Assembly (NCBI GenBank): GCA_016176405.1 | Contig: JACOXG010000028.1 | Coordinates: forward strand, 1 to 53,158 | Source: Candidatus Daviesbacteria bacterium | GTDB taxonomy: Bacteria; Patescibacteriota; Microgenomatia; Daviesbacterales; UBA10151 | DNA: 53,158 nucleotides | Direction of reading: 5' to 3' | Shown: positions 17,076 to 49,777 of the stretch, piece after piece | Numbering within the stretch: the first letter of the stretch is position 1 | Layout of the letters: each line of letters opens with the position of its first letter | Notes under the pieces: generated by a model | The model's input: the letters and a program-made list of their open reading frames with translations, nothing else | Told to the model about the DNA's origin: nothing | Database searches by the model: none | Translations under genes and position numbers: made by a program

Positions 17076-19190
17076 ATGCAAAATTTAGTTATTGTTGAAT
17101 CACCTACTAAAGCCAGGACTCTCCAAAAGTATTTGGGAGATCAATATCAAATTGAGGCCTCTATGGGGCATGTTCGAGATTTGCCAAAATCTGATTTTGG
17201 GGTGGATGTAGAGCATGATTTTGAGCCGCAATATGTCATTCCCAGAGATAAAAGGAAAATGGTTAATCAGTTAAAAAAGGTGGCAGAATTAGCTAAGAAT
17301 TTGTGGCTTGCTACAGATCCTGATAGAGAAGGAGAGGCAATTGCTTGGCATTTAGGAAAAGTGATAAGTGAAAAGGGAGGGATGGGTCAGGAAATTAAAC
17401 GTGTTATTTTTCATGAAATTACAGAGGATGCAATTAAAGAGGCTTTTAAAAATCCCAGACAAATAAATCTTAAATTGGTTGATGCTCAACAAGCCAGAAG
17501 AGTTTTGGATAGATTGGTGGGTTATAAACTTTCCCCCTTACTATGGCAAAAAGTTAAAAAGGGTTTATCTGCAGGGAGAGTACAATCAGTGGCTTTAAGA
17601 TTAATTGTGGAAAGAGAAAGAGAGATCTCTGCTTTTAAAGCAGTGGAATACTGGGTTATTGAGGCAGAACTTAGCAAACACCTCCGAGGTGAGACTGGAG
17701 TTGCACCTAGTGCGCACCTCGGAGGTGAAGTCAAGGAGGCGTTTATTGCCACTTTGATTGAACAAAATGGTAAAAAACTGGCTATTAAAAATGAGCAAAG
17801 CTCTTACGAAAAAAATCAGAGATTTTTTATTCGTAATAAAGAAGAAGCAGACGGACATGTTGCCAATTTAGCAAAGGCTAGTTATGTTGTGTCCAAAATT
17901 ACTCAAAAAGAAGTCAGAAGATATCCCTACCCTCCTTTTACTACCTCCACCATGCAACAGGGAGCTGCTAATAGATTAGGATTTTCTGCTAAAAAAACTA
18001 TGATGCTGGCACAGGCCTTATATGAAAGGGGACTGATTACTTATATGAGAACAGATTCATTTAATTTGGCCCCCTCAGCCATTGTTTCTGCCAGAAATTA
18101 CATTGGGCAAAAATTTGGTAAAGCCTATTTGCCCTCTGCTCCTAGATTGTATAAATCCAAATCTAAAAATGTGCAGGAAGCTCATGAGGCCATCAGAGTA
18201 ACGGATGTCAAACGTCAGAGTTCAGATATCAGACAACAGGGGGGTTTAAACAGAGATCATGTTAGATTATATGATTTGATTTGGAAGCGCTTTTTGGCTT
18301 GTCAGATGAGTGAGGCAGTTTTGGATCAGACCACAGTGGATGTCCAAGCTCACCTCCGAGGTGAGCCAAAGGTTTCGTCAGGCGCACACCTCGGAGGTGT
18401 AACCTATCTTTTAAGGGCAACTGGCTCTGTAATTAAATTCGAGGGATGGTTGAAATTATATGGCAAGGAAGCAGAAGAAAATGAAGATGAGAAAAAACAA
18501 CTACTCCCATCTCTTTCGGAAAATCAACCACTTAATCTTATTCAACTACTCCCATCTCAGCACTTCACAGAACCGCCTCCCAGATATACAGAAGCAACTT
18601 TGATTAAAAAGCTGGAAGAATTGGGTATTGGTCGGCCTTCCACTTATGCTCCGATTTTATCTACCATTCAAGATAGATTTTATGTGGAAAAACAGGAGAG
18701 AAAATTCGTGCCCACCTCCTTAGGTTTTGCAGTGACAGATTTTGTGGTCAAATATTTTCCTGATATTGTTGATTATTCATTTACTGCTCAGTTAGAAGAT
18801 GAGCTGGATGAAATAGCCAGAGGAGAAAGAGAATGGAGACCAACCATTAGAGAATTTTATACTCCTTTTGAAAAAAAGCTTGAGGAAACTGCTCAAGATG
18901 CTGAGAAAGTAAAAATGGTGGTGGAATATGCGGGGAAGAAATGCCCCGAGTGTGGAAAAGAATTAATAGTAAGAATAGGGAAATTTGGCAAATTCTTAGC
19001 ATGTTCAGGTTTCCCGGATTGTCGCCATACTGAGAGTATTGAAGAAACAATTAATATTAAATGTCCCGAAGATGGTGGAGAAATAGTGGTTAGAAAAACC
19101 AGAAGAGGAAAAACTTTTTATGGCTGTAAAAACTGGCCAGTCTGCAAATTTGCTTCCTGGACCAAACCAAAGGCAAGTAAGCAATCTTGA
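17076..19190 (+). CDS. topA: DNA topoisomerase I
   Basis: VIVESPTK, ATDPDREGE, SAGRVQS, ITYMRTDS and C-terminal Zn ribbons. Confidence 0.98.
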   Translation: MQNLVIVESPTKARTLQKYLGDQYQIEASMGHVRDLPKSDFGVDVEHDFEPQYVIPRDKRKMVNQLKKVAELAKNLWLATDPDREGEAIAWHLGKVISEKGGMGQEIKRVIFHEITEDAIKEAFKNPRQINLKLVDAQQARRVLDRLVGYKLSPLLWQKVKKGLSAGRVQSVALRLIVEREREISAFKAVEYWVIEAELSKHLRGETGVAPSAHLGGEVKEAFIATLIEQNGKKLAIKNEQSSYEKNQRFFIRNKEEADGHVANLAKASYVVSKITQKEVRRYPYPPFTTSTMQQGAANRLGFSAKKTMMLAQALYERGLITYMRTDSFNLAPSAIVSARNYIGQKFGKAYLPSAPRLYKSKSKNVQEAHEAIRVTDVKRQSSDIRQQGGLNRDHVRLYDLIWKRFLACQMSEAVLDQTTVDVQAHLRGEPKVSSGAHLGGVTYLLRATGSVIKFEGWLKLYGKEAEENEDEKKQLLPSLSENQPLNLIQLLPSQHFTEPPPRYTEATLIKKLEELGIGRPSTYAPILSTIQDRFYVEKQERKFVPTSLGFAVTDFVVKYFPDIVDYSFTAQLEDELDEIARGEREWRPTIREFYTPFEKKLEETAQDAEKVKMVVEYAGKKCPECGKELIVRIGKFGKFLACSGFPDCRHTESIEETINIKCPEDGGEIVVRKTRRGKTFYGCKNWPVCKFASWTKPKASKQS
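17679..17727. repeat. 49-bp double-palindrome element, copy 1 (in topA)
   Basis: CACCTCCGAGGTG-N23-CACCTCGGAGGTG. Confidence 0.9.
18351..18399. repeat. 49-bp double-palindrome element, copy 2 (in topA)
   Basis: CACCTCCGAGGTG-N23-CACCTCGGAGGTG. Confidence 0.9.
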
Positions 19191-19335
19191 AAGTCGCTCG
19201 TCACATCAAAAAGCACCGTTCGACTAGAAGTTCTGAATCATTAAATAGATTTTCTAGTCTCACTATGGGAAAGTTTTATGACGAGCATCTGCACATAAAA
19301 GTTTCTAATTGCTTTTATGATTGTGACTTTGCTCC
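19191..19335. repeat. ~145-bp structured intergenic repeat, copy 1
   Basis: Aligns with 23571-23718 and 26424-26570; long closing stem plus two hairpins with compensatory changes. Confidence 0.9.
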
Positions 19336-19358
19336 CTCTGCCACAACCTAATCACTTA

Positions 19359-19387
19359 TTGACTTTCAATAACTGATTTAGTAAGAT
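19359..19387 (+). promoter_or_regulatory. Sigma70-type promoter of pyrG
   Basis: TTGACT-17 bp-TAAGAT. Confidence 0.6.
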
Positions 19388-19436
19388 AATGAGGGCCTCA
19401 AAATACTCCATAATAAGAGCGGAACCCCCAAATAAA

Positions 19437-21047
19437 ATGAAATATATTTTTGTATCTGGTGGTGTGATTAGTGGTATTGGTAAGGGCATAGCAACTGCCT
19501 CAATTGGTTTACTCCTAAAATCTGCAGGATATAAAATCTCTCCTTTAAAAATGGATCCTTATTTAAATGTTGATGCAGGTACCATGAATCCGATTGAACA
19601 TGGAGAAGTGTTTGTGTTAGATGATGGAGTAGAAACAGATCAGGATTTAGGTCATTATGAAAGATTCTTAAATGAAAGTTTAACCCGCGCCAATATTGCC
19701 ACTCAAGGAAGTATTTATCTTTCAGTCATACAGCGGGAAAGAAATTTAGAATATGATGGGGCTTTTGTGGATATTACCCATATTACAGAGGAAATTATCA
19801 GAAGAATTAATGAGGCAGGTAAAAGTCGGAATGCAGATATTGTCCTAATCGAAATTGGTGGAACTGCCGGAGAATATCAAAATGTTTTATTTCTTGAGGC
19901 GAACAGGCTGCTAAAACTTAAAAAACATGATGATGTCATTCATGTTCATATCACCTATTTACCAGTGCCGCCTTCAATTGGGGAAATGAAATCCAAACCA
20001 GCTCAGATGTCTATCAGAGATTTAAATGCTGTAGGAATTCAGCCAGACATAATTTTAGCAAGAGGCGAGAAACCAATTGATGAATTTAGAAAGAAAAAGT
20101 TGGCAATTTCCTCCGGCTTGGAATTAGAAGATATTATTTCTGCTCCAGATGTGAATTCTATTTATAAAGTGCCCATTGGTTTTGAAAATCAAAATTTATC
20201 AGAGAGAATTTTGGGAAAATTAAAATTAAAAAGAAAAGATAAAGATTTAAAAGAGTGGAGAGAGTTTGTTTCCAAAATTGATGCTGCTAAAAAGGTAGTT
20301 AAAATTGGGGTGGTTGGTAAATATTTTACTACAGGTGATTATACTTTGGCAGATTCTTATATTTCTGTCATTGAGGCCATCAAACATGCTGCCTGGACTC
20401 AAGGTTTTATTCCCAAGATTGTATGGCTGGACTCTGCCAAGGTTTTGGATGATGTTAGTTTACTGAAAGGTTTTCAGGGAATTATTGTGCCAGGAGGATT
20501 TGGTTCCAGAGATATTGAGGGAAAAATTTTAACCATTAAATATTGTCGGGAAAATAAAATTCCCTATTTTGGTTTATGCTATGGCATGCAACTGGCTTGT
20601 GTGGAATATGCCAGAAATGTTTTACATTTAACAGGAGCTCATACCACTGAAGTTGATCCCCAAACCAAATATCCGGTCATTCATATTATGCCCTCGCAAC
20701 AAAAGAAAATGTTAAATAGGGAATATGGGGGGACTATGAGGTTGGGGGCTTGGGATTGTGTTTTAAAAAAAGGCACTTTGGCTCATAAGCTATATGGGAA
20801 AGATAAAATTTCCGAAAGACATAGACACAGATTTGAGTTTAATAATCAGTTTCTGAAAAAGTTTTTAGGTGGCGGAATGGTGATATCTGGCACTACCCTG
20901 GATAAACAACTGGTGGAAATAATTGAACTAAAAGATCATCCATTTTTCATTGGTACTCAATTTCATCCAGAATTAAAATCCCGCCCCTTAGATCCTCATC
21001 CATTATATCTAGGTTTTATCAAAGCTGCTTCAGAAATAAAGGCGTGA
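19437..21047 (+). CDS. pyrG: CTP synthase
   Basis: MKYIFVSGGVISGIGKG, DPYLNVDAGTMNP, GLCYGMQ and QFHPE motifs. Confidence 0.98.
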   Translation: MKYIFVSGGVISGIGKGIATASIGLLLKSAGYKISPLKMDPYLNVDAGTMNPIEHGEVFVLDDGVETDQDLGHYERFLNESLTRANIATQGSIYLSVIQRERNLEYDGAFVDITHITEEIIRRINEAGKSRNADIVLIEIGGTAGEYQNVLFLEANRLLKLKKHDDVIHVHITYLPVPPSIGEMKSKPAQMSIRDLNAVGIQPDIILARGEKPIDEFRKKKLAISSGLELEDIISAPDVNSIYKVPIGFENQNLSERILGKLKLKRKDKDLKEWREFVSKIDAAKKVVKIGVVGKYFTTGDYTLADSYISVIEAIKHAAWTQGFIPKIVWLDSAKVLDDVSLLKGFQGIIVPGGFGSRDIEGKILTIKYCRENKIPYFGLCYGMQLACVEYARNVLHLTGAHTTEVDPQTKYPVIHIMPSQQKKMLNREYGGTMRLGAWDCVLKKGTLAHKLYGKDKISERHRHRFEFNNQFLKKFLGGGMVISGTTLDKQLVEIIELKDHPFFIGTQFHPELKSRPLDPHPLYLGFIKAASEIKA

Positions 21048-21090
21048 TATACTCACTTGAAATATTTCTCCTATAAGTTAAAGTCAAGTT

Positions 21091-21609
21091 ATGAAAAAGA
21101 AAAATAAGATAGTTTATGCCTTTATTGATAGTCAGAATTTAAACCTTGGAGTACTTTCGCAAGGTTGGCAACTTGATTGGCGTAAATTTAGACAGTATCT
21201 ACGCAATAAATATAACGCTACTGATACCTATCTTTTTATAGGTTACAAACCCGGTAATGAAGCATTGTATGCTAACCTACAGCAAATGGGCTATCTGGTA
21301 ATTCTTAAGCCCACGATGGAGTTACCGGATAAATCGGTAAAGGGTAATGTTGATGCAGAGTTAGTGTTGCATACCATGATTCAATATAAAAATTATGATA
21401 AAGCAATTATTGTTTCAGGCGACGGAGATTTTTTCTGCCTTGTGGAGTATCTTGAAAGTAAAAATAAGCTACTTCATATTTTGGCACCAAATAGAAGGTA
21501 CTCAAAACTTTTTAGCAAATATTCACGCTTGGTTATAAGAGTAGATCAATTGAGGGGTAGTTTAGAATTCAAAAAGAAAACTGGCATCGGCGGTCGGTCG
21601 AAACCTTAG
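21091..21609 (+). CDS. NYN-domain (LabA/DUF88-like, PIN-fold) putative ribonuclease
   Basis: AFIDSQNL, KGNVDAEL and IIVSGDGDF acidic motifs. Confidence 0.9.
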   Translation: MKKKNKIVYAFIDSQNLNLGVLSQGWQLDWRKFRQYLRNKYNATDTYLFIGYKPGNEALYANLQQMGYLVILKPTMELPDKSVKGNVDAELVLHTMIQYKNYDKAIIVSGDGDFFCLVEYLESKNKLLHILAPNRRYSKLFSKYSRLVIRVDQLRGSLEFKKKTGIGGRSKP

Positions 21610-21642
21610 GCCTATCCAGTCATCGTGATACATTTTATTATA
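21571..21642 (-). ncRNA. Candidate ~60-nt antisense small RNA (span includes its -10 box) overlapping the 3' end of the NYN gene
   Basis: Minus-strand TTGCTT-16-TATAAT with TGn extension, then a GC-rich hairpin (ACTGG...CCAGT, inner GGT-TTCG-ACC) and a TTTTCTTTTT tract. Confidence 0.5.
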
Positions 21643-21649
21643 GCACAAT

Positions 21650-22284
21650 ATGGATAAAAAGCAAGGTTTATTAATTGTTATTGATGGTTAAAAAAATATT
21701 TAAAAGAAAAAGATATTAAATTTGAAATAATTAGTTTTCCTCAGTATGGTAAAAATAGTTTTGCTAAAAAAGTTGAAGATTATTTAAAAGGAGAGTTTGG
21801 CAAATTAGATGAAGCAGATCCATATGTGATTGCAAAATTTTACGCTGGAGATAGATTAACTGCTAAGAATTTAATAAATAAATGGTTGCATCAAGGAAAA
21901 CTGGTGATAGCCAACAGATATGTATCATCCTCTAAGGCTCATCTTGGGGCTAACCTGCCCGAAAATAAAAGAGAAAAATTTTTTAAATGGCTGAATCAAT
22001 TGGAATATCAAAAAAATAATCTCCCCAAAGAAGATTTAACTATTCTTTTAATAGTTGATCCGAAAGTGGGCCAGAGAAATGTGATGGAGAAACACCATCT
22101 TGATCTTCATGAAAATGATTTAAATCATTTAAACAATGCCAATAAAATTTATTTAGATCTTTCTAAAAAAGAAAAAAATTGGGAGGTAATAAATTGTATG
22201 AATAAAGGAAAAATGAAATCTAAAGAAGATATTCAAAAGGATATCGTAAAAATACTACTTGAAAAAAAGCTGCCTGCAGAATAA
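21650..22284 (+). pseudogene. tmk: Thymidylate kinase, frameshifted with the P-loop deleted (possibly assembly artefact)
   Basis: MDKKQGLLIVIDG* then out-of-frame ISFPQYG...YAGDR...ANRYVSS; the GSGKxTQ segment is absent. Confidence 0.8.
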
Positions 22285-22298
22285 AGTATTCTAGTTTT

Positions 22299-22979
22299 AT
22301 GACAAAAAGAAATAACAAGATTCCTCGCTACGCTCGGAATGACATGGGGGGTGAAGATATTGTAGGCACCCTTCCTGATTGGGTCATTAAAGAATATATC
22401 AAAAAAGGCATTATAAAAATAAGTCCCTTACCTAAAAATTGGGAAGATAATGTGGATGGGGTGACTATTGATTTTCATTTGGGCAATAAACTGAGAGTTT
22501 TTACTGGGGATGGCTGGGATATTATTGATACCAAACACACTACCAAAGAAGAAATGGAATCGATGATGAAACTGATATTCTTAAAACCTGGCCAACCTTT
22601 TGTTTTATCTGATAAGGATTTTGTGATAGCCACCACCCAAGAAAAATTAACTTTACCAGATAATATTGTAGGACATCTTCATGGAAAATCTTCTTTGGCC
22701 AGACTGGGGATTGCAGTTCACTCAACTGCTGCCAGATTTGACCCGGGTTGGGATGGACATCCGGTTTTAGAATTTGGGACCTTTTTAAAAGGGAAAAGAG
22801 TGGTAATTTATGAGGGTTCCCCCATTTGTGCTTTTTCTTTTGAAAAATTAGCAGCATCAGTTAAAAGGCCTTATCATAAGAGCCCCCAAAATAGGTATGG
22901 AGGCTCTGATTTACCTGAGGTTTCTAATATAATGGGGAGGAAACCGGCTCGTCGCAGTACAAAGCACCGTTCAACTTAA
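22299..22979 (+). CDS. dcd: dCTP deaminase
   Basis: GKSSLARLG, DPGWDGHPVLE and PICAFSF motifs. Confidence 0.9.
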   Translation: MTKRNNKIPRYARNDMGGEDIVGTLPDWVIKEYIKKGIIKISPLPKNWEDNVDGVTIDFHLGNKLRVFTGDGWDIIDTKHTTKEEMESMMKLIFLKPGQPFVLSDKDFVIATTQEKLTLPDNIVGHLHGKSSLARLGIAVHSTAARFDPGWDGHPVLEFGTFLKGKRVVIYEGSPICAFSFEKLAASVKRPYHKSPQNRYGGSDLPEVSNIMGRKPARRSTKHRST

Positions 22980-22984
22980 TTTTT

Positions 22985-23092
22985 AGATGTGAGAAGTTGG
23001 ATGTGTGAAGATAGATAATGATGTGAGAAGTGAGACTATTCACACATCACATTTCAATAATCCATATTCACATTTCGCACTTCCCATTTCAA
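22985..23092. repeat. Intergenic converging 7-bp-period arrays
   Basis: gatgtgagaagttggatgtgtga...gatgtgagaagtgaga followed by inverted cacacatcacatttc...tcacatttcgcacttcccatttc. Confidence 0.75.
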
Positions 23093-23098
23093 AAGTAT

Positions 23099-23570
23099 AT
23101 GTCAGTATTTAAGACTGGGGTCAGTTTATAAAATTGTTAGTGGTGGGGCTTTTATAGAAGGGGATAACGAAAAGGGTTTAGGGAAAAGAAAAGGTGTTAA
23201 AACAGAAATTTTGGCAAAGTTTAAAAAGGGAAAAAGGAAACAGGAATGGGCTACTATAAAACCAGGAGATTATTATCTTGTATCAACTTTAGAAATTATC
23301 AATACCCCAAAAGATCTGATGCCACTTATTTTTCCTCGGACCTCACTATTTAGGGCCGGTCTCTTACTGTTGAATTCAAAAACTGATCCTGGATATAAAG
23401 GTCCTTTAGCAATGGGACTAAAAAATTTGTCAGAATTTGATGTAAAGTTACAAATTGGTGCCAGAATTTGTAACATTGTTTTTTATAAAATTGAAGGGCA
23501 AACAACTCTCTATCGAGGGCAACATCAAGGTGGTAGAATAAGTCCTCATGAAGAAGAACAACAGGTTTAG
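23099..23570 (+). pseudogene. Second dCTP deaminase/dUTPase-family gene with N-terminal deletion/frameshift
   Basis: PRTSLFRAG, DPGYKG and YRGQHQGG motifs; ATG at 23099 is out of frame with LRLGSVYKI. Confidence 0.7.
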
Positions 23571-23718
23571 AAGCCGGCTCGTCTGGTCAAAAAGCACCGT
23601 TCGACTACTATATCTGAAACATTTAGTTTATTCTCTAGTCTCACTATGGGAAAGTTTTGTGACGAGTAGCTGCACACAAAACTTTCTAATTGCTTTTATG
23701 ACTCAGACTTCGCCGCCT
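23571..23718. repeat. ~145-bp structured intergenic repeat, copy 2
   Basis: Nearly identical to copy 3 outside one variable hairpin. Confidence 0.92.
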
Positions 23719-23735
23719 ATTAATAACGTTAAGAA

Positions 23736-24731
23736 ATGAGAAAGCAAAAACATCCTGAATACCAATATTTAGATTTATTAAAAGACATCATGAAAAATGG
23801 TGTAGACAAACCTGTTTTTAATAATCCAGGAGTAACTATAAAATCTGTTTTTGGTAGACAAATTCGATTTGATTTAAAAAAAGGTTTTCCACTTTTAACC
23901 ACCAAAAAAGTTTTTTTAAGGGGAATTATTCATGAATTACTTTGGTTTTTAAAAGGAGATTCTAATATTAAATATTTAATTGATCAAGACGTTCACATCT
24001 GGGATGAATGGGCATATAAGCGCTTCAAAGAAGCGCAAAATTTAAAATTTAAAATTTCAAATTTAAAATTGAAAGGATATTTTAAAACAATAAAAACTCA
24101 AGAACAATTTATTGCAAAAATAAAAGAACTTCCAGCTCATGATAAGTTTGTTAGAGAATGGGGGGATTTGGGAAATGTTTATGGAGTACAATGGAGAAAA
24201 TGGAAAACATCAGATGGAAGAGTAATTGATCAGATGGCCTGGGCCATTGAAAAATTAAGAAAAACTCCTTTAAGAAAACATATTATTATTTCTGCTTGGA
24301 ATCCTGAATTTATTTATGAGATGGCACTCCCTGGAAAATCCATGGCTCTTCCTCCTTGTCACACTTTATTTCAGCTAAATGTCAATGATAAAAATGAATT
24401 ATCACTTCATCTGTTCCAGAGGAGCTCTGATCTTTTTTTGGGTGTGCCATTTAATATTGCCTCCTATGCATTATTAACAATGATGATTGCTCAAGTAACT
24501 AATTTAAAAGTTGGGGAATATGTACATACTTTTGGCGATGTGCATATATATAGTAATCATATGGATCAGGTAAAAGAGCAATTAAAAAGAAAACCAAGGT
24601 CATTTCCTAAAATGAAATTAAATCCTAAAGTTAAAAATATTGATGAGTTTAAATTAGAGGATTTTGAGCTAACAGGTTATAATCCTTATCCTCCTATTAA
24701 AGCTCAAGTTACTGTAGTAGGAGGATTTTAA
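23736..24731 (+). CDS. thyA: Thymidylate synthase
   Basis: FPLLTTKK, ELLWFLKG, ALPPCH and QRSSDLFLGVPFN motifs. Confidence 0.98.
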   Translation: MRKQKHPEYQYLDLLKDIMKNGVDKPVFNNPGVTIKSVFGRQIRFDLKKGFPLLTTKKVFLRGIIHELLWFLKGDSNIKYLIDQDVHIWDEWAYKRFKEAQNLKFKISNLKLKGYFKTIKTQEQFIAKIKELPAHDKFVREWGDLGNVYGVQWRKWKTSDGRVIDQMAWAIEKLRKTPLRKHIIISAWNPEFIYEMALPGKSMALPPCHTLFQLNVNDKNELSLHLFQRSSDLFLGVPFNIASYALLTMMIAQVTNLKVGEYVHTFGDVHIYSNHMDQVKEQLKRKPRSFPKMKLNPKVKNIDEFKLEDFELTGYNPYPPIKAQVTVVGGF

Positions 24732-25225
24732 TGAGTAAAATTAATATTGTGGTCGCAGCTGCTGGAAAAAAAAGAGTCATTGGTCAAAAAGGAAAACTGC
24801 CTTGGTATATCCCAAATGAGCTAAAAAGATTTAAAGAAATTACCATGGGACACCCAATAATTATGGGCAGAAAAACTCATGAATCCATTGGTAGAGTTTT
24901 ACCTGGAAGGACAAACATTGTGATAACTTCTCAAGAAAATTATTCAGCCCCGGGATGTAAAGTTGCTCACAATTTAGATGAAGCCCTTCGACTCGCTACG
25001 CTCGCTCAGGGCAATGACGAAATATTCGTCATTGGTGGAGGGCAAATTTATGAACAAGCAATGCAAGTTACCAATAAATTATATTTAACATATGTGGATA
25101 AAGAAATAGAAGGAGATACCTTTTTCCCAGATTATTCAGAGTTTAAAAAAGTAGTTTCTGAATCAAACTGGCAACATGATAAAGATTTAAGATACAAATT
25201 CTTAGAGCTGGAAAGATATAGATGA
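24731..25225 (+). CDS. folA: Dihydrofolate reductase
   Basis: LPWYIP, IMGRKT, LPGRTNIV, VIGGGQIY and GDTFFP motifs. Confidence 0.97.
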   Translation: MSKINIVVAAAGKKRVIGQKGKLPWYIPNELKRFKEITMGHPIIMGRKTHESIGRVLPGRTNIVITSQENYSAPGCKVAHNLDEALRLATLAQGNDEIFVIGGGQIYEQAMQVTNKLYLTYVDKEIEGDTFFPDYSEFKKVVSESNWQHDKDLRYKFLELERYR

Positions 25226-43057: not shown

Positions 43058-43062
43058 TAGTT

Positions 43063-43096
43063 AGATCCTTCGCTCGTTTCACTCGCTCAGGATGAC
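43063..43096. repeat. Intergenic REP-like hairpin
   Basis: AGATCCTTCGCTCGTTTCACTCGCTCAGGATGAC. Confidence 0.8.
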
Positions 43097-43118
43097 AAGT
43101 TGAGTTAAGAGATTGTAC

Positions 43119-43478
43119 TCAACTTGTCAAATAAGGCCAAAAGATGAAAATTCCTGCAATGGCGGCAGTGATGGCAGCAATTAAAACAGCCCCCGCTGAA
43201 ATATCTTTGGCCAACTTTGCCCCTGGATGCTCCGCCTCTGTAAAAGCATCAACCACAGTCTCAACGGCAGTGTTGGTTAATTCTACTGAAAAAACTATCC
43301 CAATCAGAAGAATTACATTAATCCAGTCCTGCTTAGAGATGTTCAAAAAGAAGGAAAGAGCTATTGCTAAAATTGCAGCTATAATATGAAACTTTAGATT
43401 TGGCTCCTGTTTTAATGCTTGCACCAAACCTTCAAAAGCATACTTAAAAGAAAGTACATGAAAATTTTTGATAGGCAT
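43119..43478 (-). CDS. dgkA: Diacylglycerol/undecaprenol kinase
   Basis: SFKYAFEG, ELTNTAVETVVD and AKDISAGAV motifs. Confidence 0.93.
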   Translation of the reverse strand: MPIKNFHVLSFKYAFEGLVQALKQEPNLKFHIIAAILAIALSFFLNISKQDWINVILLIGIVFSVELTNTAVETVVDAFTEAEHPGAKLAKDISAGAVLIAAITAAIAGIFIFWPYLTS

Positions 43479-43538
43479 ATTTTTAGTATACCACGAGGTC
43501 CTTCGACTTCGCTCAGGATAATCCGCTGCGCGGATTAC

Positions 43539-43567
43539 TTGACTTAAAACTTAGATTGAGTTATATT
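43539..43567 (+). promoter_or_regulatory. Promoter of the pur operon, probably leaderless
   Basis: TTGACT-17-TATATT, 5 nt before the purF ATG. Confidence 0.65.
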
Positions 43568-43572
43568 AAGCT

Positions 43573-44905
43573 ATGAGAACACAACTTGCAGAAAAGTGTG
43601 GAATATTTGGTATTTTAGGGAAGGGTTTTGAAGCGGCCCGCTTAGTTCACCCAGGTCTTTGGGCCCTACAACACAGAGGCCAAGAATCTTCAGGAATTGC
43701 TTCATCAGATGGTAAAAAGATTTATATCCACAAAGGTATAGGATTAGTGGCTCACGTTTTTTCAGAAGAAGATTTAAAGAAATTAAAAGGGTATTTAGCA
43801 ATTGGTCATAACCGCTATTCTACATCTGGTGATGCTTGGGATAAACATGCCCAACCTATTGTGGTTAATGTTAAGGGAGGACAAATTGCCGTTGTTCATA
43901 ATGGTAATCTTCCCTCCACTCAAAAATTAGAGAAGTTTTTACTAGATAAAAAAATTTCCATAGAGGGTTTAAATGATTCAGAAATGATTGCTCAGGCCAT
44001 AGGTTTTTATGTTTCATCTGGACAATTTTTAGAGCAAGCTATTAAATCTGCTTATATATTGTTTACTGGGGTGTTTTGTTTACTGGTGATGGATGAAAAA
44101 AAGATTATCGCGGTCAGAGATGGTTTTGGTATCAGACCTTTATGTCTAGGTAAATTGAATGGTGGGACTGTAGTGGCTTCTGAAACTTGTGCTATTAAAA
44201 AGTATCCAGATAGAAAAGGGCAATCAAAAGTTGGATGCATTTGAATATGTTTATTTTGCCAGGCCAGATAGTTATCTCATGGGAAAAAGTGTTGATCAAG
44301 TTAGGCAAAATTTGGGAGAAGAACTGGCAAAAGAATATAAAATAGATGCTGATATTGTTATTCCTGTTCCTGATTCTGCTATTCCTGCAGCAATTGGTTA
44401 CTCAAGAAAATCAGGCATCCCTTTTGAAATGGGACTGATTAAAAACAGATATATTCATAGAACTTTTATTTCTCCTGAGGAACATACCAGACACAGAATT
44501 GTTCAGCTAAAACTTAATCCCATGCCACATATACTAAAGGGTAAAAAAGTGATTGTAATTGATGATTCCATTGTCAGGGGGACTACCTCAAAACAAATTA
44601 TTAAAATGATTAGAGATGCTGGGGCAAAAGAAGTTCATCTTTTAATTTCTTCTCCTCCAGTTAAGTTTCCTGATTTTTATGGAATAAATACGCCTGATCA
44701 AAAAGAGTTAATTGCCGCTGTCAAAAAGATTCCAGAAATAGCAAAAGAATTAGGGGTGGATTCTATTCACTATCTCTCTTTGAAAGGTTTAATCAGAGCA
44801 ATTGGTTTACCAGAAGATGTACTTTGTACGTCTTGCTTTACAGGAAATTATCCAGTAGATATTGGTGAGAGAGCAAAAGAAGTAGACTTTTCTCTCAGAT
44901 CATGA
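43573..44905 (+). pseudogene. purF: Amidophosphoribosyltransferase, split by deletion/frameshift near 44195 (possibly assembly artefact)
   Basis: CGIFG, QHRGQE and GHNRYST in ORF1; FEYVYFARPDS and DDSIVRGTT in ORF2. Confidence 0.9.
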
Positions 44906-45531
44906 AAAGGATTGTAGTTTTAATTTCTAATAAAGGATCTGGGACAAATCTTCAAGCAATCATCGATGGGGTAAATTCCAAAAAAATTAATGCAAAAATT
45001 ATATCTGTAATATCTGATACAGAAGAGGCACTTGGGTTAACAAAAGCAAGAAAAAATAAGCTATCAATTAAAATAGTTCCCAAAAAAGAAAAACTTTTAA
45101 GTGTTTTAAAAAAATTGAATCCAGATTATATTTGTTTAGCTGGATGGAAACAAATAATTGTTCCGGAGGTAATAGATGCATTCCCCAATAGAATTCTCAA
45201 TACACATCCCGGTTTAATTCCTGACACAATTGATGGGGCTGTTAAAAATCCAGATGGTACAAAGGCAATATGGAATAAGGGAAAAATGACTGACAAAGCC
45301 ATGCAAAATTTCTTGGATAATAAGGCCACCTACGCTGGCTGTACCAACCACTTTTTATCCCATGAGTTTGATTTTGGACCAGTATTGGGTAGATGTTTTG
45401 AGAAGGTTAAAAAGGGAGATTCAATTGATTCACTTTATACAAGATTGAAAGTTAAAGAAAACAGACTATATGTAGAAGTATTAGCTCAGTTAACTAACAA
45501 TGAATCATTTAAAATGATTCAAATCATTTAA
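44902..45531 (+). CDS. purN: Phosphoribosylglycinamide formyltransferase
   Basis: GSGTNLQAI, LAGW, NTHPGL and DFGP motifs. Confidence 0.9.
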   Translation: MKRIVVLISNKGSGTNLQAIIDGVNSKKINAKIISVISDTEEALGLTKARKNKLSIKIVPKKEKLLSVLKKLNPDYICLAGWKQIIVPEVIDAFPNRILNTHPGLIPDTIDGAVKNPDGTKAIWNKGKMTDKAMQNFLDNKATYAGCTNHFLSHEFDFGPVLGRCFEKVKKGDSIDSLYTRLKVKENRLYVEVLAQLTNNESFKMIQII

Positions 45532-45540
45532 ACAATATAT

Positions 45541-46839
45541 ATGAATATTTTAGTTATTGGACAAAATGGAAGAGAGCATGCATTAGCAGTTGCCTATGCT
45601 AAATCTAAAAAGGTCAGCAAGGTTATTATGACACCAGGTAATGGTCTGACTGATTTTCAAAATATTAAAATTAAAAACTATCCTAAAGCGGGCATGACGG
45701 ACTTTAAAGGAATTGTCAAAGTTTGTAAAAAAGAAAAAATAGATTTGGTAGATGTGGCTCAAGATGATGTGATTGCAGCAGGTTACGTGGATAGATTAGA
45801 GGAGTTGGGCATAGCAGCCTTTGGCCCAACTAAGTTGGCTTCACAGTTGGAGTGGGATAAAGAGTGGGCCAGAAACTTTATGCTCAAATATAATTTACCT
45901 ATTCCCCGTTTCCAAGTCTTTAATAATCAGAAAAAAGCCATCTCTTATATCAACTCCCTCCCAGAACAAGTTCTTTTTGTTAAAGCTTCAGGTTTGGCAT
46001 TGGGTAAAGGGGTAATTCGGGCAGAGAATAAAAAAGAGGCAATTGAGGCAGTCAAGGCCATGAAAAATTTTGGTGGTAGCGGAGAAACTTTTTTAATTGA
46101 GGAAGCTTTAGTGGGAGAAGAATTTTCACTGTTTGCCATCTGCGATGGAGAAAATTTCCAAGTAACAAAAGCGGCTCAAGATCACAAAAGAATCTACGAT
46201 GGAGATAAGGGTCCAAACACTGGCGGGGTGGGAAGTATTGCACCGACAGGAGCTGTTAGTTCAGCAATAATTAGAGAAATAGAATCCAAGATTATCAAAC
46301 CAACACTTTTGGGAATGAAAAATGAGGGAAGAGTCTACAAAGGAATCTTATATCTGGGAGGAATAATAACTTCCAATGGAGTAAAAGTTATTGAATTTAA
46401 CTGTAGGTGGGGAGATCCTGAAGCAGAGGTGATAGTACCAAGCATACAAACTGATTATTTAAGCTTGGTAGATTCAGTCAGGGTTGGAAGACTATCAAAA
46501 TCAAAAATCCAATTTGATGAAAAGATCAGACTTTCTGTGGCTGGTTGTTCTAAAGGATATCCGCAGAATTACTCATCTGTAATAGATAAAGAAATTTTTG
46601 GATTAACTGACGCTATGAAATTACCAGATATTACAATTTTCGGTGCAGGAATTAAAAGATCAGGAAAGAGATTTTTTGCAAATGGAGGGAGAGTATTTCA
46701 TGTTGTAGGGGAAGGCAAAAATGTCATTGAAACAATGGAGAATGCCTATAAGGCTATTTCGATGATCACCATTGAAGGGAATAATTTATACTATAGAACT
46801 GATATTGGTTGGAGAGATTTAGGAAGGTTAAAAAAATGA
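45541..46839 (+). CDS. purD: Phosphoribosylamine--glycine ligase
   Basis: GREHAL, QDHKR, GPNTGG and EFNCRWGDPE motifs. Confidence 0.97.
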   Translation: MNILVIGQNGREHALAVAYAKSKKVSKVIMTPGNGLTDFQNIKIKNYPKAGMTDFKGIVKVCKKEKIDLVDVAQDDVIAAGYVDRLEELGIAAFGPTKLASQLEWDKEWARNFMLKYNLPIPRFQVFNNQKKAISYINSLPEQVLFVKASGLALGKGVIRAENKKEAIEAVKAMKNFGGSGETFLIEEALVGEEFSLFAICDGENFQVTKAAQDHKRIYDGDKGPNTGGVGSIAPTGAVSSAIIREIESKIIKPTLLGMKNEGRVYKGILYLGGIITSNGVKVIEFNCRWGDPEAEVIVPSIQTDYLSLVDSVRVGRLSKSKIQFDEKIRLSVAGCSKGYPQNYSSVIDKEIFGLTDAMKLPDITIFGAGIKRSGKRFFANGGRVFHVVGEGKNVIETMENAYKAISMITIEGNNLYYRTDIGWRDLGRLKK

Positions 46840-46857
46840 TTCAAGTGATAAGGACCA

Positions 46858-46899
46858 TGATGTTCTCGCAGTTTGAAATATTATACTGCTCGAACATCA
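46858..46899. repeat. Intergenic imperfect palindrome between purD and purL
   Basis: TGATGTTC-tc-GCAGT-N12-ACTGC-tc-GAACATCA. Confidence 0.7.
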
Positions 46900-46924
46900 G
46901 AACCTGTTAATTTGTAAAAAGTCT

Positions 46925-49777
46925 ATGATACAAATTATTAGAGTTAAAAATGTAGGTAAAGATTTATTGGGAGAGGGAATTCTTCATGATATCCATAATA
47001 CTTTGGGTAACAGAAATGTTACAAAAGTTGAATCTGCCAAAGTTTATAGATTAGAAGGTGTTTTTGAGGAGGAAGCCAAAATAATGGCAGAAACTGTTTT
47101 TTGTGAAAGTATTTATCAGACATATACATTGAATGAATCAATTCTAGGAATACACCTCCGAGGTGTGAGCAAGACGACTGCCAAGGCTCACCTCGGAGGT
47201 GAACAATTAGTGGTTTTAGAGGTTGCATATAAACCTGGGGTGATGAATCCTGAGGTGGGGTCAATTCTTAAGACCGCAGCTGACTTAAAAATTAAATTGA
47301 TTGCTGCTGATTCATCACACGAGTATGGTTTTTGGGGAGAAGTGACTACCAAAGAGGTGGAAGAAATTGCCAGAAAACTACATCTTCTAAATGAGATGAT
47401 TGAGTATTTTGTAAGAGAGGAACCAAAGACACTGATTATTAAGGAAGCTCCTGGAAAAACTAAAATCATCTGGCTACGTGGAATGAATGATAAACAATTA
47501 ATGAATCTTTCCCAAGGTAAACTTTTCCTTAATTTAGAAGAAATGAAAGTTATTCAAAGATATTTTCAAAAAATAAAAAGGGATTCGACTGATTTGGAAC
47601 TGGAGACTTTGGCTCAAACTTGGAGTGAACATTGTGCCCATAAAATTTTTAAAGCCAAAATAATTTTAGATGGCAAAGAAAAAGAACCCTTATTTACAAG
47701 ATTAAAAAAGGAAGCTTTAAAACATAATAAAAATATTGTTTCAGCATTTGTGGATAATGCAGGAGCAATGGATTTTTATGAAGGTTGGGCTATTAATGGA
47801 AAAGCAGAAACACACAATGCCCCCTCCGCTATAGAACCATATGGTGGAGCTATGACTGGCTCTGGTGGAGTTTTTAGGGATGTAGTAGCCACAGGCCAGG
47901 GTGCCAAAGCAGTTGTATCAACAGATATATTTTGTCTGGCTCCACCTGATATGGATAAGAGCCAACTGCCCGAGGGAACATTACCTCCTGACTATATGTT
48001 AAAAAGGGTAGTGGCTGCTGTTAGGGATTATGGCAATAGAGTGGGAATTCCCACTAACAATGGGTCATTTCATTTTCATGAAGATTTTCGGGCCAAACCA
48101 ATTGTTTTGGTTGGGGCTTATGGAATTTTGCCTAAAGAAAAAGCTAAAAAGGGATCTCCCAAAATTGGAGATATAGGGGTGGTGATTGGGGGAAGAACCG
48201 GGAGGGATGGAATTCATGGGGCTACATTTTCTTCTGGAATAATGTCAGAAAAAACAGCTACTATAAATGCTACAGCAGTGCAGATTGGGAATGCTATTGA
48301 AGAAAAAAGAATTTTTGATGCCATACTTGAGGCCCGAGATAAAAATTTAATCAGGGCTGTCCAAGATTTGGGAGCTGGAGGATTTTCATCTGCCATTGGT
48401 GAGATGGGAGTAGAAACTGGAGTTAAAGTTCATTTAGAAAAAGCACCACTTAAGTATCAAGGTTTGGCTCCCTGGGAAATTTTCCTAGCAGAATCTCAAG
48501 AGAGAATGTTAGTTGTTCTTTCTAAAAAGAATCTGAAAAAGTTTTTGAAAATTTGTCAAAAATATAATGTGGAAGCAACTAGTTTAGCAGAGTTTGATGG
48601 AAGCAGGAAATTACAAGTTTATTTTGAAAAGCAAAAAATTGGGGATTTAGAAATGAGTTTTCTCCATGGAGGATTACCCCAGAGAGTAATGAAAGCAACT
48701 CATGTCAAGGTCGCACCTTCGTCAAGGTCGCACCTCAACAAGATGCCGGGGACGGAAAAGGCGTGGGTTAATACTCTAAAGAGGGTCTTGGCAGATGGAA
48801 ATATAAATTCTAAAGAACCAATACTTCGAATGTATGATCATAATGTACAAGGGACAAATGCCTTGCATCCTTTTGCAGGTGAAGGGATGGATGGGCCAAA
48901 TGATGCAGTTGTTGTAAAGCCTTTACTTGATAAGCCCTACGGTATGGTGGTGGCCCATGGACTAAACCCAGAGTTCACAATGGTAGATCCATATTGGGGC
49001 AGTATTTGGGCAGCCACTGAAGCAATTTCAAATTATGTAGCAGTAGGAGGAGATTACAAAGAAGCCTGCTTAATAAATAATTACATTTGGCCATTCCCTG
49101 ATGAAGAGTGGTTGGGGAAATTAGATAGATGTGTGGATGCAGTTTGTGATTTTATGAAGGCTTTAAAGATTCCTGTAATTTCTGGAAAAGATAGTTTATC
49201 AGCAACTTACCGTGGGTCTAATGGAGTAGTAATACATAGCCCGCCTACACTTTGCATATCAGTTTTTGGAAAAATTCCTGATGTTACAAAAACAGTTTCT
49301 TCTGATTTTAAGAAAATTGGGTCAACAATTGTACTTGTTGGTCAAACAGCTCACCCCCGGGGTGAAGCTAAGGATTCACCAAGATCACACCCCGGGGGTG
49401 TGCCTAGAGTTGATTTACAACTGTTGCCAAAAGTCTTGGATAAAATTCATCAAGCAATTATAAGTGGAAAAGTTTTAGCTTGTCATGATGTTTCAGAAGG
49501 AGGTTTAATAACCTCAATTTTTGAAATGTGTGTGGGCGGGAATTGTGGAGCAACTTTGAAAGTTGATGGGAACCAAATACTTAATGAAACAGCTGGATGT
49601 TTTATTATAGAGATGGAAAATGAGGTGATTGCCAAAACTTTATTCAAAGGGATTCCATTTCAGATATTGGGAAAAACTACTGAAGAGGAAAAAATAAAAG
49701 TAGATGGATTAGTTACAGTAGATGTAAAGGAGCTTAAAGAAACATGGCAAAAACCAATGAAGGAGATATTTCCATGA
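46925..49777 (+). CDS. purL: FGAM synthase subunit PurL with N-terminal PurS-like region
   Basis: QTWSEHC, ETHNAPSAIEP, DLGAGG, ESQERM, SGKDS and HDVSEGG motifs. Confidence 0.95.
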   Translation: MIQIIRVKNVGKDLLGEGILHDIHNTLGNRNVTKVESAKVYRLEGVFEEEAKIMAETVFCESIYQTYTLNESILGIHLRGVSKTTAKAHLGGEQLVVLEVAYKPGVMNPEVGSILKTAADLKIKLIAADSSHEYGFWGEVTTKEVEEIARKLHLLNEMIEYFVREEPKTLIIKEAPGKTKIIWLRGMNDKQLMNLSQGKLFLNLEEMKVIQRYFQKIKRDSTDLELETLAQTWSEHCAHKIFKAKIILDGKEKEPLFTRLKKEALKHNKNIVSAFVDNAGAMDFYEGWAINGKAETHNAPSAIEPYGGAMTGSGGVFRDVVATGQGAKAVVSTDIFCLAPPDMDKSQLPEGTLPPDYMLKRVVAAVRDYGNRVGIPTNNGSFHFHEDFRAKPIVLVGAYGILPKEKAKKGSPKIGDIGVVIGGRTGRDGIHGATFSSGIMSEKTATINATAVQIGNAIEEKRIFDAILEARDKNLIRAVQDLGAGGFSSAIGEMGVETGVKVHLEKAPLKYQGLAPWEIFLAESQERMLVVLSKKNLKKFLKICQKYNVEATSLAEFDGSRKLQVYFEKQKIGDLEMSFLHGGLPQRVMKATHVKVAPSSRSHLNKMPGTEKAWVNTLKRVLADGNINSKEPILRMYDHNVQGTNALHPFAGEGMDGPNDAVVVKPLLDKPYGMVVAHGLNPEFTMVDPYWGSIWAATEAISNYVAVGGDYKEACLINNYIWPFPDEEWLGKLDRCVDAVCDFMKALKIPVISGKDSLSATYRGSNGVVIHSPPTLCISVFGKIPDVTKTVSSDFKKIGSTIVLVGQTAHPRGEAKDSPRSHPGGVPRVDLQLLPKVLDKIHQAIISGKVLACHDVSEGGLITSIFEMCVGGNCGATLKVDGNQILNETAGCFIIEMENEVIAKTLFKGIPFQILGKTTEEEKIKVDGLVTVDVKELKETWQKPMKEIFP
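47153..47201. repeat. 49-bp double-palindrome element, copy 3 (in purL)
   Basis: CACCTCCGAGGTG-N23-CACCTCGGAGGTG. Confidence 0.9.
48704..48736. repeat. Tandem pair of AAGGT-CGC-ACCT mini-hairpins in purL
   Basis: GTCAAGGTCGCACCTTC GTCAAGGTCGCACCTC, 17-bp period. Confidence 0.75.
49352..49400. repeat. 49-bp double-palindrome element, copy 4 (variant, in purL)
   Basis: CACCCCCGGGGTG-N23-CACCCCGGGGGTG. Confidence 0.9.

What the first reader, a model, noticed from the sequence alone, without database searches (positions are those of the whole stretch)
17679..49400. 49-bp 13-23-13 double-palindrome element inserted in frame in topA (twice) and purL (twice)
Four copies (17679, 18351, 47153, 49352) have identical geometry: a 13-bp arm, exactly 23 bp of variable spacer, then the exact reverse complement of the arm. 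Each arm is itself a palindrome around one central base (CACCTC-C-GAGGTG). Copy 4 changes T>C and A>G in all four half-arms, preserving both symmetries. All are read in the same frame as H-L/P-R-G-x8-H-L/P-G-G with small flexible residues. Fixed spacing, free spacer and covarying arms suggest a paired protein-recognition or recombination site, or a non-autonomous mobile element that colonises coding DNA.
Basis: seen in the sequence. Interest (0 to 1): 0.82.

Follow-up and report, generated by a model that had tools for sequence, protein, structure and literature searches.

The report
REPIN-like hairpin repeats inside genes
A 49-base hairpin-forming repeat of the REP/REPIN type, probably spread by a small tyrosine (HUH) transposase, sits in frame inside topA, purL and 15 other housekeeping genes of a tiny groundwater bacterium and adds about 16 amino acids each time.

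Summary
All four 13-23-13 copies lie at the stated coordinates, where 0 are expected by chance. They are read through in frame in topA (twice) and purL (twice).

The whole 0.95-Mb genome holds 20 such doublets. All 20 lie inside long ORFs of 17 housekeeping genes, including UvrA, UvrB, UvrD, a DinB-like polymerase and TopA. Orthologous sites in related genera are empty, so the doublets are insertions.

The geometry matches a REPIN: two inverted copies of a small palindromic REP unit, separated by a less conserved spacer. The genome encodes four Y1/HUH transposases that resemble RAYTs. One of them is flanked on both sides by hairpins whose core matches 12 of the 13 arm bases. In relatives, arm sequences change together with the hairpins beside their own Y1 genes. 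In one relative the same kind of doublet is intergenic and brackets the Y1 gene.

The element is therefore a new variant of a known kind. It is miniature, intragenic and translated, and the host is a Microgenomates (CPR) bacterium. Intragenic REP dimers in uvr genes are already in print for other phyla.

Mobilisation by the Y1 protein is inferred, not shown. Invariant arms at one orthologous site in six genomes remain only partly explained.

The parts
17679..17727 (+). Element copy 1 in topA. Arms at 17679-17691 and 17715-17727, with a 23-nt spacer. Sense orientation, read as HLRGETGVAPSAHLGG.
   Evidence: The RNA fold has a 13-bp stem at -32 kcal/mol, z -6.3. The site is empty in 24 of 24 orthologs aligned, two of which carry other long inserts there.
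18351..18399 (+). Element copy 2 in topA. Arms at 18351-18363 and 18387-18399. Sense orientation, read as HLRGEPKVSSGAHLGG.
   Evidence: The fold is -29 kcal/mol, z -6.0. The sister genome G015 has an empty site. G019 has a 23-nt copy at the same position with a different spacer.
47153..47201 (-). Element copy 3 in purL. Arms at 47153-47165 and 47189-47201. The spacer is antisense to the gene, read as HLRGVSKTTAKAHLGG.
   Evidence: The site is empty in 5 of 6 purL orthologs. G009 has an arm-like singlet there.
49352..49400 (+). Element copy 4 in purL, with variant arms (T>C and A>G in all four half-arms). Sense orientation, read as HPRGEAKDSPRSHPGG.
   Evidence: One search gives 20 of 23 as the highest spacer identity among the 16 copies. 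By my own reading of the spacers printed, that pair is copy 4 and the tsaD copy at C30:33518. The site is empty in G015, G006 and G014.
17076..19190 (+). Host gene topA (704 aa). It stays intact through both inserts.
46925..49777 (+). Host gene purL (FGAM synthase, 950 aa). It stays intact through both inserts.

Best explanation
Each 49-bp unit is a miniature REPIN-like element. It consists of two inverted copies of a 13-base palindromic REP unit (CACCTC-C/G-GAGGTG) separated by a less conserved spacer.

As a single strand it can fold in two ways. It can form one long hairpin with a 13-bp stem, or a 'clover' in which each arm folds on itself.

I infer that a RAYT-like Y1/HUH tyrosine transposase copies it in trans through single-stranded DNA. 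The gene for that protein, on another contig of the same genome, is bracketed by the same hairpin core. This genome has little intergenic DNA. The copies that survive are those that fell into tolerant, length-variable loops of proteins and keep the reading frame. They are translated as about 16 extra residues.

Shown here: the anatomy, copy number, intragenic in-frame position, insertion status, association with Y1 genes, and covariation of arms with Y1-flank hairpins. Inferred: that the Y1 protein binds, cuts and moves the element, the ssDNA route, and the target choice (bases GCT before the element and TA after it).
For: 1. Family size and position. The genome has 20 doublets with perfect arms. 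All 20 of 20 lie in open frames of at least 150 aa with at least 10 aa on each side. Only 2.8 of 6 frames on average are open through an element, so 0.47^20 is about 3e-7.

2. Insertion status. TopA site 1 lacks the element in 24 of 24 orthologs. TopA site 2 is empty in the closest genomes. Both purL sites are empty in most of the 6 orthologs. All four sites lie at positions where orthologs differ in length.

3. Partner gene. PF01797 finds 4 genes over its cut-off in this genome. Their best NCBIfam family is the REP-associated tyrosine transposase. Their best PDB match is E. coli TnpA-REP, 4ER8. The motifs PNHxH and YxHxN are invariant in the 5 proteins aligned. The C5 gene has, just upstream and just downstream, hairpins with a core equal to 12 of 13 arm bases. 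The other three genes each have a different hairpin.

4. The same rule holds elsewhere. In all 18 loci printed I read, by eye, a short GC-rich hairpin of the same style on both sides of the Y1 gene. The core ACCTCCGAGGT flanks Y1 genes on both sides in G001 (2 genes), G014 and G021. In G027, 8 of 8 doublets with other arms are intergenic, and 2 of them bracket a Y1 gene. G008 and G019 have doublets whose variant arms match the hairpin beside one of their own Y1 paralogs.

5. Phyletic pattern. Matches to the general doublet pattern occur in 13 of 31 genomes with a Y1 match and in 0 of 10 without (Fisher p = 0.017; related genomes are not independent).

6. Recurrent use of one site. On a TopA tree, G000 pairs with G015 (support 96/93), which has an empty site. 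G019, which has a filled site, pairs with G014 (90/95), which is empty. The G000 and G019 spacers differ at 12 of 23 positions by my own comparison of the spacers.

7. Fit to the published REPIN description. Passages read in PMC3116915 describe invariant inverted ends, a less conserved spacer, compensatory changes and two alternative folds.
Against: No transposition or excision event was seen.

In G005, G008, G009, G011, G018 and G019, which hold exact or near-exact CACCTCCGAGGTG doublets, none of the Y1 paralogs I fetched is flanked by that exact core. One search left 21 matches unlisted, and these genomes are 92-99% complete. A cognate partner for this arm type beside its doublets is therefore shown only in G000.

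The Y1 proteins score 41-62 bits against an NCBIfam cut-off of 80, and only E = 0.03 against 4ER8.

There are four diverged paralogs (37-53% identity), not one single-copy RAYT.

There is no GTAG or CGTC tag. The flanks read GCT before the element and TA after it.

A purely selfish, decaying repeat does not predict two further facts. A profile search finds only the 20 intact copies and no decayed one at E up to 0.1. At one uvrD site occupied in six genomes, 0 of 26 arm columns vary against 111 of 276 flank columns, and 0 of 8 against 67 of 92 at third codon positions.
Confidence: 0.72

Rival explanations
1. The hairpins are kept by the host for a function of their own. Possible roles are an mRNA or ssDNA structure that slows translation, sets mRNA stability, or binds a domesticated Y1 protein as a regulator of repair and topology genes. 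Mobility would be ancient or irrelevant.
For: At the uvrD site occupied in six genomes, the arms are invariant while 73% of flanking third positions vary. No decayed copies exist in the genome. Five of 17 host genes are UvrA, UvrB, UvrD, a DinB-like polymerase and TopA. Passages of PMC3733652 describe the same bias for other phyla. The arms contain the exact 16S 3'-end heptamer and its complement, and the 16S tail was found on C26.
Against: G015, the sister genome on the TopA tree, is 100% complete and has 0 doublets of the general form, with empty sites in topA and purL. The hairpins are therefore dispensable. Arm sequences differ between genomes and follow the hairpins next to Y1 genes. Copies occur in unrelated genes, in both orientations and in two reading phases. 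Y1-flank hairpins of other genomes do not keep the Shine-Dalgarno complement.
Confidence: 0.12
2. The Y1 genes are ordinary autonomous IS200/IS605-type insertion sequences. The doublets are their internally deleted derivatives (palindrome-associated MITEs), not a RAYT/REPIN system in the strict sense.
For: Relatives carry 1 to 13 Y1 genes per genome. Each gene has a hairpin at both ends and a promoter-like box just inside the upstream one. That layout resembles IS200 as I recall it.
Against: The paralogs within this genome are only 37-53% identical, and each has a different hairpin. That does not look like recent copies of one IS. The best family and the best solved structure are RAYT, not IS200 TnpA. 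The doublets contain nothing of the gene, only two hairpin units.
Confidence: 0.1
3. The element is not translated. Either it is removed from the mRNA or the ribosome bypasses it, as in the T4 gene 60 gap or the mitochondrial 'byp' elements (both recalled).
For: The hairpin is very stable, at -27 to -32 kcal/mol as RNA with z from -4.5 to -6.3. Its length of about 50 nt is like the gene 60 gap (recalled).
Against: All 20 of 20 copies are open in the host frame, though fewer than half of all frames are open through them. Spacer lengths are congruent to 2 mod 3 in 85 of 102 copies. Reading phase 1 is used by 1 of 86 copies in long ORFs. All of this indicates selection on the encoded peptide.
Confidence: 0.03
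4. The repeat is a selected protein motif (two His-Leu-Gly turns), or a chance convergence that arose in place.
For: The peptide is small, hydrophilic and repeated.
Against: Nucleotides are conserved, not amino acids. The same DNA is read as HLRG..HLGG in 15 copies and as TSEV..TSEV in 5 in this genome, and on either strand. Synonymous positions of the arms never vary.
Confidence: 0.01

Closest known systems
REPINs (REP doublets forming hairpins) with their RAYT transposases; Bertels & Rainey 2011, PMC3116915 (abstract and passages read)
   Same: Both have two inverted, highly conserved palindromic REP units and a less conserved spacer whose length matters. Both show compensatory changes and two alternative folds (long hairpin or clover). 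In both, a Y1/HUH gene is flanked by the same REP.
   Different: This element is 49 bp, whereas the paper gives 71 bp between the two invariant 16-mers of one REPIN type. Here 20 of 20 copies are intragenic and translated rather than extragenic. The host is a Microgenomates/CPR bacterium. There are four diverged Y1 paralogs rather than one per family. The Y1 proteins score below the NCBIfam RAYT cut-off.
Intragenic GTAG/CGTC REPs; Di Nocera et al. 2013, PMC3733652 (abstract and passages read; its Additional file 3 listing the cases could not be seen)
   Same: Single REPs and dimers lie inside ORFs and encode 20-30 residues, sometimes twice in one gene. Many are in uvrA, uvrB, uvrD/rep, polymerase and tRNA synthetase genes. 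The authors consider them neutral loop decorations.
   Different: That paper reports most REPs as intergenic, with intragenic ones a minority, and the units carry GTAG or CGTC tags. Here every copy in the genome is intragenic, the flanks read GCT and TA, and the unit is shorter.
Rickettsia palindromic elements (RPE), as cited in passages of PMC3733652; details otherwise recalled
   Same: Palindromic repeats inserted in frame into functional genes of a small genome.
   Different: By recall, RPEs are roughly 100-150 bp, and no dedicated transposase is established for them. Here the unit is 49 bp and a candidate Y1 partner is present.
IS200/IS605 ends and their miniature derivatives (recalled; background in PMC6006769, passages read)
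   Same: Subterminal hairpins are recognised on single-stranded DNA by a Y1 HUH enzyme. Orientation is strongly biased (32 sense and 4 antisense here).
   Different: No full-length multi-copy IS with these ends is seen in this genome. The cleavage and target tetranucleotide is not defined.

Membership tests
REPIN / REP-RAYT system | The REP unit is a short GC-rich palindrome able to form a hairpin. | tested here: met
   Each arm is a 6+1+6 palindrome. Elements are 61.5% GC in a 37.7% GC genome.
REPIN / REP-RAYT system | Two REPs in inverted orientation with a less conserved spacer, folding into a hairpin. | tested here: met
   There are 20 doublets. Among the 16 copies of the 23-nt class, 4 of 26 arm columns vary against 20 of 23 spacer columns. 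A 13-bp stem is predicted in RNA and in DNA for all 4 window copies.
REPIN / REP-RAYT system | A Y1/HUH transposase gene is flanked by the same REP sequence. | tested here: met
   The G000 C5 gene has a core equal to 12 of 13 arm bases on both sides. In G027, doublets lie on both sides of the gene. No such gene was found for this arm type in G008, G009, G011, G018 or G019.
REPIN / REP-RAYT system | HUH motif and catalytic tyrosine in the protein. | tested here: met
   PNHxH and YxHxN are invariant in the 5 proteins aligned. They align to the corresponding motifs of 4ER8.
REPIN / REP-RAYT system | The protein reaches the curated RAYT family score (NF047646, 80 bits). | tested here: not met
   Scores are 41.5-62.3 bits for the four proteins. 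It is still the best family for each. Pfam Y1_Tnp is over its cut-off.
REPIN / REP-RAYT system | Extragenic location. | tested here: not met
   In G000, 20 of 20 copies are in ORFs of at least 150 aa. In other Microgenomates, 66 of 82 are. In G027, 8 of 8 are intergenic.
REPIN / REP-RAYT system | RAYT is single copy per family and vertically inherited. | tested here: inconclusive
   There are four paralogs of 37-53% identity, each with its own hairpin type. Relatives have 1-13 copies. No phylogeny of the proteins was made.
REPIN / REP-RAYT system | Evidence of excision or new insertion. | tested here: inconclusive
   Only assembled contigs of 4 runs could be laid. The polyphyletic filled state at one topA site is indirect evidence for repeated insertion.
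GTAG / CGTC REP superfamilies (Di Nocera 2013) | A GTAG or CGTC tetranucleotide at one end of the stem-loop. | tested here: not met
   Among 40 oriented copies, the flank consensus is G (21), C (24), T (26) before the element and T (27), A (27) after it.
Rickettsia palindromic elements | In-frame insertion in functional genes. | tested here: met
Rickettsia palindromic elements | Sequence relationship to an RPE family. | not tested
   No RPE sequence was on hand. Rfam gave no match on the window.
DDE-type MITE | Terminal inverted repeats plus a target-site duplication, and a related DDE transposase. | tested here: inconclusive
   Inverted ends are present. TA lies on both sides in 8 of 8 G027 copies. 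Since TA is self-complementary, it may simply extend the palindrome. No DDE transposase was searched for.

The most novel reading that the evidence does not exclude
The intragenic doublets are not just tolerated passengers. In Microgenomates they would be long-lived sites, maintained at the nucleotide level, that a family of RAYT-like ssDNA/hairpin-binding proteins uses to act on DNA-repair and topology genes (uvrA, uvrB, uvrD, dinB-like, topA). The proteins might exchange or invert the spacer between the arms, or tune expression through a hairpin that hides a perfect Shine-Dalgarno/anti-Shine-Dalgarno pair. That would make REP-in-repair-gene, also seen in Opitutus, Rickettsia and Thauera, a general and functional arrangement.
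Probability: 0.15. Interest if true: 0.8.

Novelty: new variant of a known kind. Interest (0 to 1): 0.55.

Why it matters
The finding extends REP/REPIN-RAYT biology to the Candidate Phyla Radiation. Four literature searches returned no paper that links the two.

It shows what happens to such repeats in a genome with almost no intergenic space: they live inside essential genes as translated loops. These copies mark permissive loop sites in TopA, PurL, UvrABD and other enzymes. They can mislead annotation and alignments, and they break metagenome assemblies at repeats.

Copy 4 changes all four half-arms together, and one genome has a flipped spacer at an orthologous site. Both give unusually clean natural evidence that both folds of a REPIN matter.

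The repeated preference for DNA-repair genes across distant phyla remains unexplained and can now be tested in a second, very different lineage.

Tried and rejected
Protein motif: rejected, because the same DNA is read in two phases and on both strands.

Known RNA family: Rfam at gathering thresholds gave 0 matches on the whole window.

Restriction or other known DNA-binding sites: considered from recall only. No match came to mind and nothing was tested.

Shine-Dalgarno idea: the arms contain the 16S 3'-end heptamer and its complement. Y1-flank hairpins in other genomes do not keep this. I treat it as probably incidental and did not test it.

Sequencing runs: four groundwater runs of one study, possibly the source, and one run of another study hold the stretch. 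No RNA holder was listed. Only assembled contigs could be laid, on contig C19 with its four copies. The listed joints include none that skips just an element. Several contigs start or end inside elements, and loose ends at 8500/8543 and 9812/9864 show the same repeat in other contexts. More than 500 joints were not shown. This says nothing for or against empty alleles.

Metagenome scan for an empty topA site 2: 0 matches. Near-identical genomes may be left out of that collection, so the result is uninformative. The second scan was not used.

Decayed copies: none were found with up to 3 mismatches per arm beyond chance or with a profile search. A 49-nt profile has limited reach.

Exact ends of the inserted unit: they could not be fixed. 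The net gain at topA site 2 against G015 is 48 nt, but the closest empty sites come from other genera. Some of those sites carry arm-like half sites. These could be targets or footprints.

Literature: PMC3116915, PMC3733652 and PMC6006769 were read as abstracts and searched passages only. All other papers were seen only in search listings.

Full report
THE OBSERVATION

Each has a 13-base arm, 23 bases of spacer, and the reverse complement of the arm. Each arm is itself a palindrome around one central base. A search allowing 3 mismatches finds only these 4, all with 0 mismatches, against 0 in 100 shuffles. The 8 single arms compare with an expectation of 0.03.

Copy 4 differs at the same two positions of all four half-arms, so both symmetries are kept. 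All four copies are read through in the host frame as H-L/P-R-G-x8-H-L/P-G-G. The hosts are a 704-aa topoisomerase I and a 950-aa FGAM synthase.

THE FAMILY IN THE GENOME

The window is the whole of contig C11 of a 952,738-base assembly in 33 contigs, with 37.7% G+C. The assembly holds 20 doublets with perfect arms. The spacer is 23 nt in 16 of them, and 8, 15, 20 and 24 nt in one each.

All 20 of 20 lie in open frames of at least 150 aa with at least 10 aa on each side. On average only 2.8 of the six frames are open through an element, so chance openness in all 20 host frames is about 3e-7. ORFs of at least 120 aa cover about 85% of the genome, so 20 of 20 in coding DNA is only mildly surprising in itself (0.035). 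The in-frame state is the striking part.

The 17 host genes are housekeeping genes:
- uvrD/pcrA, uvrB, uvrA, a DinB-like polymerase, and topA (two copies);
- purL (two copies), tsaD (two copies), and a class II aminoacyl-tRNA synthetase;
- ATP synthase gamma, a succinyl-CoA-synthetase-like ATP-grasp protein, and a glycosyltransferase;
- DUF763 and a large MerR-HTH protein;
- four genes of a mevalonate cluster on C19.

Reading phase is 0 in 15 copies and 2 in 5, never 1.

The 23-nt spacers are not random. They share a loose consensus, with mean pairwise identity 0.56, and hence an orientation. Over all genomes examined, orientation is sense to the gene in 32 copies, antisense in 4 and ambiguous in 2 (binomial p = 2e-6).

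No decayed copy was found. Apart from the compensated copy 4, arms with up to 2 mismatches do not pair up. A profile search returns only the 20 known copies at E up to 0.1.

THEY ARE INSERTIONS

TopA orthologs were found in 25 of 25 genomes searched. At site 1, none of the 24 other proteins has the element. At site 2 the closest relatives have two residues where G000 has eighteen, a net gain of 48 nt against G015. Both purL sites are likewise empty in most of the 6 orthologs recovered. All four sites fall where orthologs differ in length, and some relatives carry other GC-rich palindromic inserts at the same places.

WHAT IT IS

The geometry is that of a REPIN. The passages I read in Bertels & Rainey 2011 describe the same features:
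- two invariant inverted REP-bearing ends;
- a less conserved spacer whose length and hairpin capacity matter;
- frequent compensatory changes;
- a stable long hairpin as well as a 'clover' in which each REP folds alone.

This accounts for the 'double palindrome'. All four window copies fold into the 13-bp stem, at -27 to -32 kcal/mol as RNA and -15.5 to -18.4 as DNA, with z from -4.5 to -6.3.

The expected partner is present. Pfam Y1_Tnp finds four genes of about 225 aa in this genome. The REP-associated tyrosine transposase family is the best NCBIfam match for each, though at 41-62 bits it is below the 80-bit cut-off. E. coli TnpA-REP (4ER8) is the only meaningful solved relative, at E = 0.03. 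The motifs PNHxH and YxHxN are invariant.

The gene on C5 is bracketed by hairpins whose core equals 12 of the 13 arm bases. One lies just upstream, next to a promoter-like box, and one lies just after the stop codon. The other three genes each carry a different hairpin.

THE RULE HOLDS BEYOND THIS GENOME

Related Y1 genes occur in 31 of 41 genomes, with up to 13 per genome. In all 18 loci printed I could see, by eye, a hairpin of the same style on both sides of the gene. The exact core flanks Y1 genes on both sides in G001 (two genes), G014 and G021.

A general doublet pattern matches 13 of 41 genomes, with 0 control matches. All 13 are among the 31 genomes with a Y1 match, and none is among the 10 without (Fisher p = 0.017; related genomes are not independent, so this overstates the case).

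Arms covary between genomes while the short spacer stays the same (G008, G006). In G008 and G019 a variant arm matches the hairpin beside one of their own Y1 paralogs. In G027, from another family of the class, 8 of 8 doublets with yet other arms are intergenic, and two of them bracket a Y1 gene. That is the classical REPtron picture. The intragenic habit is therefore a feature of this lineage, not of the element type.

DISTRIBUTION

Exact arms occur in 7 of 41 relatives, all in the same family. By record titles, most are Daviesbacteria, Curtissbacteria, Roizmanbacteria, Beckwithbacteria, Woesebacteria, Levybacteria and other Microgenomates.

In the 82 copies outside G000, spacers fall into length classes of 11, 14, 17, 23 and 26 nt. 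Counting all 102 copies, 85 spacers are congruent to 2 mod 3, and 66 of the 82 lie in ORFs of at least 150 aa.

DYNAMICS

On a TopA tree, G000 is sister to G015 (support 96/93). G015 has empty sites, no doublet of the general form and no Y1 match. G019 carries a 23-nt copy at the very same topA position as window copy 2, but its spacer differs at 12 of 23 positions by my own comparison of the spacers printed. G019 groups with G014 (90/95), which is empty. Repeated insertion at one position is thus more parsimonious than one gain with many exact losses.

Oriented copies show GCT before the element and TA after it. The empty G015 sites carry arm-like half sites. These could be targets or footprints.

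Because each arm is self-palindromic, the two arms are direct repeats of each other as well as inverted repeats. They lie 36 nt apart, which is a multiple of three. By inference, slippage between them would make in-frame singlets and arrays. Singlets are seen at the same sites in G003 and G009, and a three-arm array is seen in L112.

WHAT A SIMPLE SELFISH-REPEAT MODEL DOES NOT EXPLAIN

One uvrD site is occupied in six genomes. None of the 26 arm columns varies, against 111 of 276 flank columns (p = 6e-6). At third codon positions the counts are 0 of 8 against 67 of 92. At that site G000 has the 23-nt class and the other five have the 14-nt class. In one of the five the spacer is the exact reverse complement.

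One search gives 20 of 23 as the highest spacer identity among the 16 copies. By my own reading of the spacers printed, that pair is copy 4 and a tsaD copy. Yet copy 4's arms differ at four mutually symmetric positions. Some process must keep or restore the arms and swap or flip what lies between them. Candidates are Y1-mediated cutting and rejoining at the arms, templated repair within the folded DNA, or host-level selection. I cannot tell which.

COMPARISON WITH WHAT IS KNOWN

Intragenic REPs are in print. Di Nocera et al. 2013 (abstract and passages) report single and dimeric REPs inside ORFs that encode 20-30 residues, sometimes twice per gene. Many are in uvrA, uvrB, uvrD/rep, polymerase and tRNA-synthetase genes of Opitutus, Rickettsia (RPE-4 and RPE-6), Thauera and others. 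The host-gene list here is strikingly similar.

Several features are new here:
- the phylum: no paper linking RAYT or REPIN with Patescibacteria, Microgenomates or CPR turned up;
- the miniature size;
- the absence of GTAG or CGTC tags;
- several diverged Y1 paralogs per genome;
- every copy in the genome being intragenic and in frame.

VERDICT

The element is a new variant of a known kind. I put 0.72 on the REPIN-like, Y1-mobilised reading. Mobilisation itself is untested, and the nucleotide-level persistence of the arms is left open.

Noticed in passing
window 50456-50473: A perfect 18-base palindrome of another kind lies between purL and the next long ORF. A longer 34-base version is on contig C32 at 1284-1317, inside a 408-aa open frame.
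   Followed up: partly
G000 contigs C5:30348, C12:9674, C17:24137, C30:44378 (outside the window): A second GC-rich palindrome family (18-22 bases, 4 copies) exists. At least three copies lie inside open frames of 177-310 aa and are read through. In-frame palindromes in this genome are therefore not limited to one family.
   Followed up: partly
all arms, e.g. window 17679-17691 and 17715-17727; 16S 3' end on G000 C26 (minus strand, near 14237): Arm 1 begins with the same heptamer as the 3' end of this organism's 16S rRNA (the anti-Shine-Dalgarno). Arm 2 ends with its perfect complement. The hairpin therefore hides a perfect internal Shine-Dalgarno site.
   Followed up: partly
L008 (G000 contig C19) 2798-9863: Four copies sit within 7 kb in a mevalonate-pathway cluster: polyprenyl synthase, two GHMP kinases and diphosphomevalonate decarboxylase. 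One has a palindromic 8-nt spacer and one belongs to the short 15-nt class.
   Followed up: partly
L017 (G003 topA site 1) and L010 (G011 topA site 1): Other genera carry different, longer GC-rich palindromic inserts at the same topA loop. The one in G003 has 11-base inverted ends of an unrelated sequence.
   Followed up: no
G011:C1:24061-24121: A short-class doublet whose loop holds a further small GC-rich hairpin, that is, an element nested within an element.
   Followed up: no
L112 1691-1760: Three arms in a row, with spacers of 20 and 11 nt, inside a 763-aa open frame of a Beckwithbacteria record. This array is the kind expected from slippage between arms.
   Followed up: no
L148 (G000 C20) 1475-1499: A 25-base perfect palindrome of the C20 hairpin type lies inside the stop-to-stop frame of that Y1 gene itself, just after the Y1 domain.
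   Followed up: no
loci L042-L044, L049, L052 and others: Many records with typical Microgenomates-style copies bear titles such as 'uncultured Gammaproteobacteria' or 'Pseudomonadales'. The titles look like placeholders rather than true taxonomy. This was not checked.
   Followed up: no
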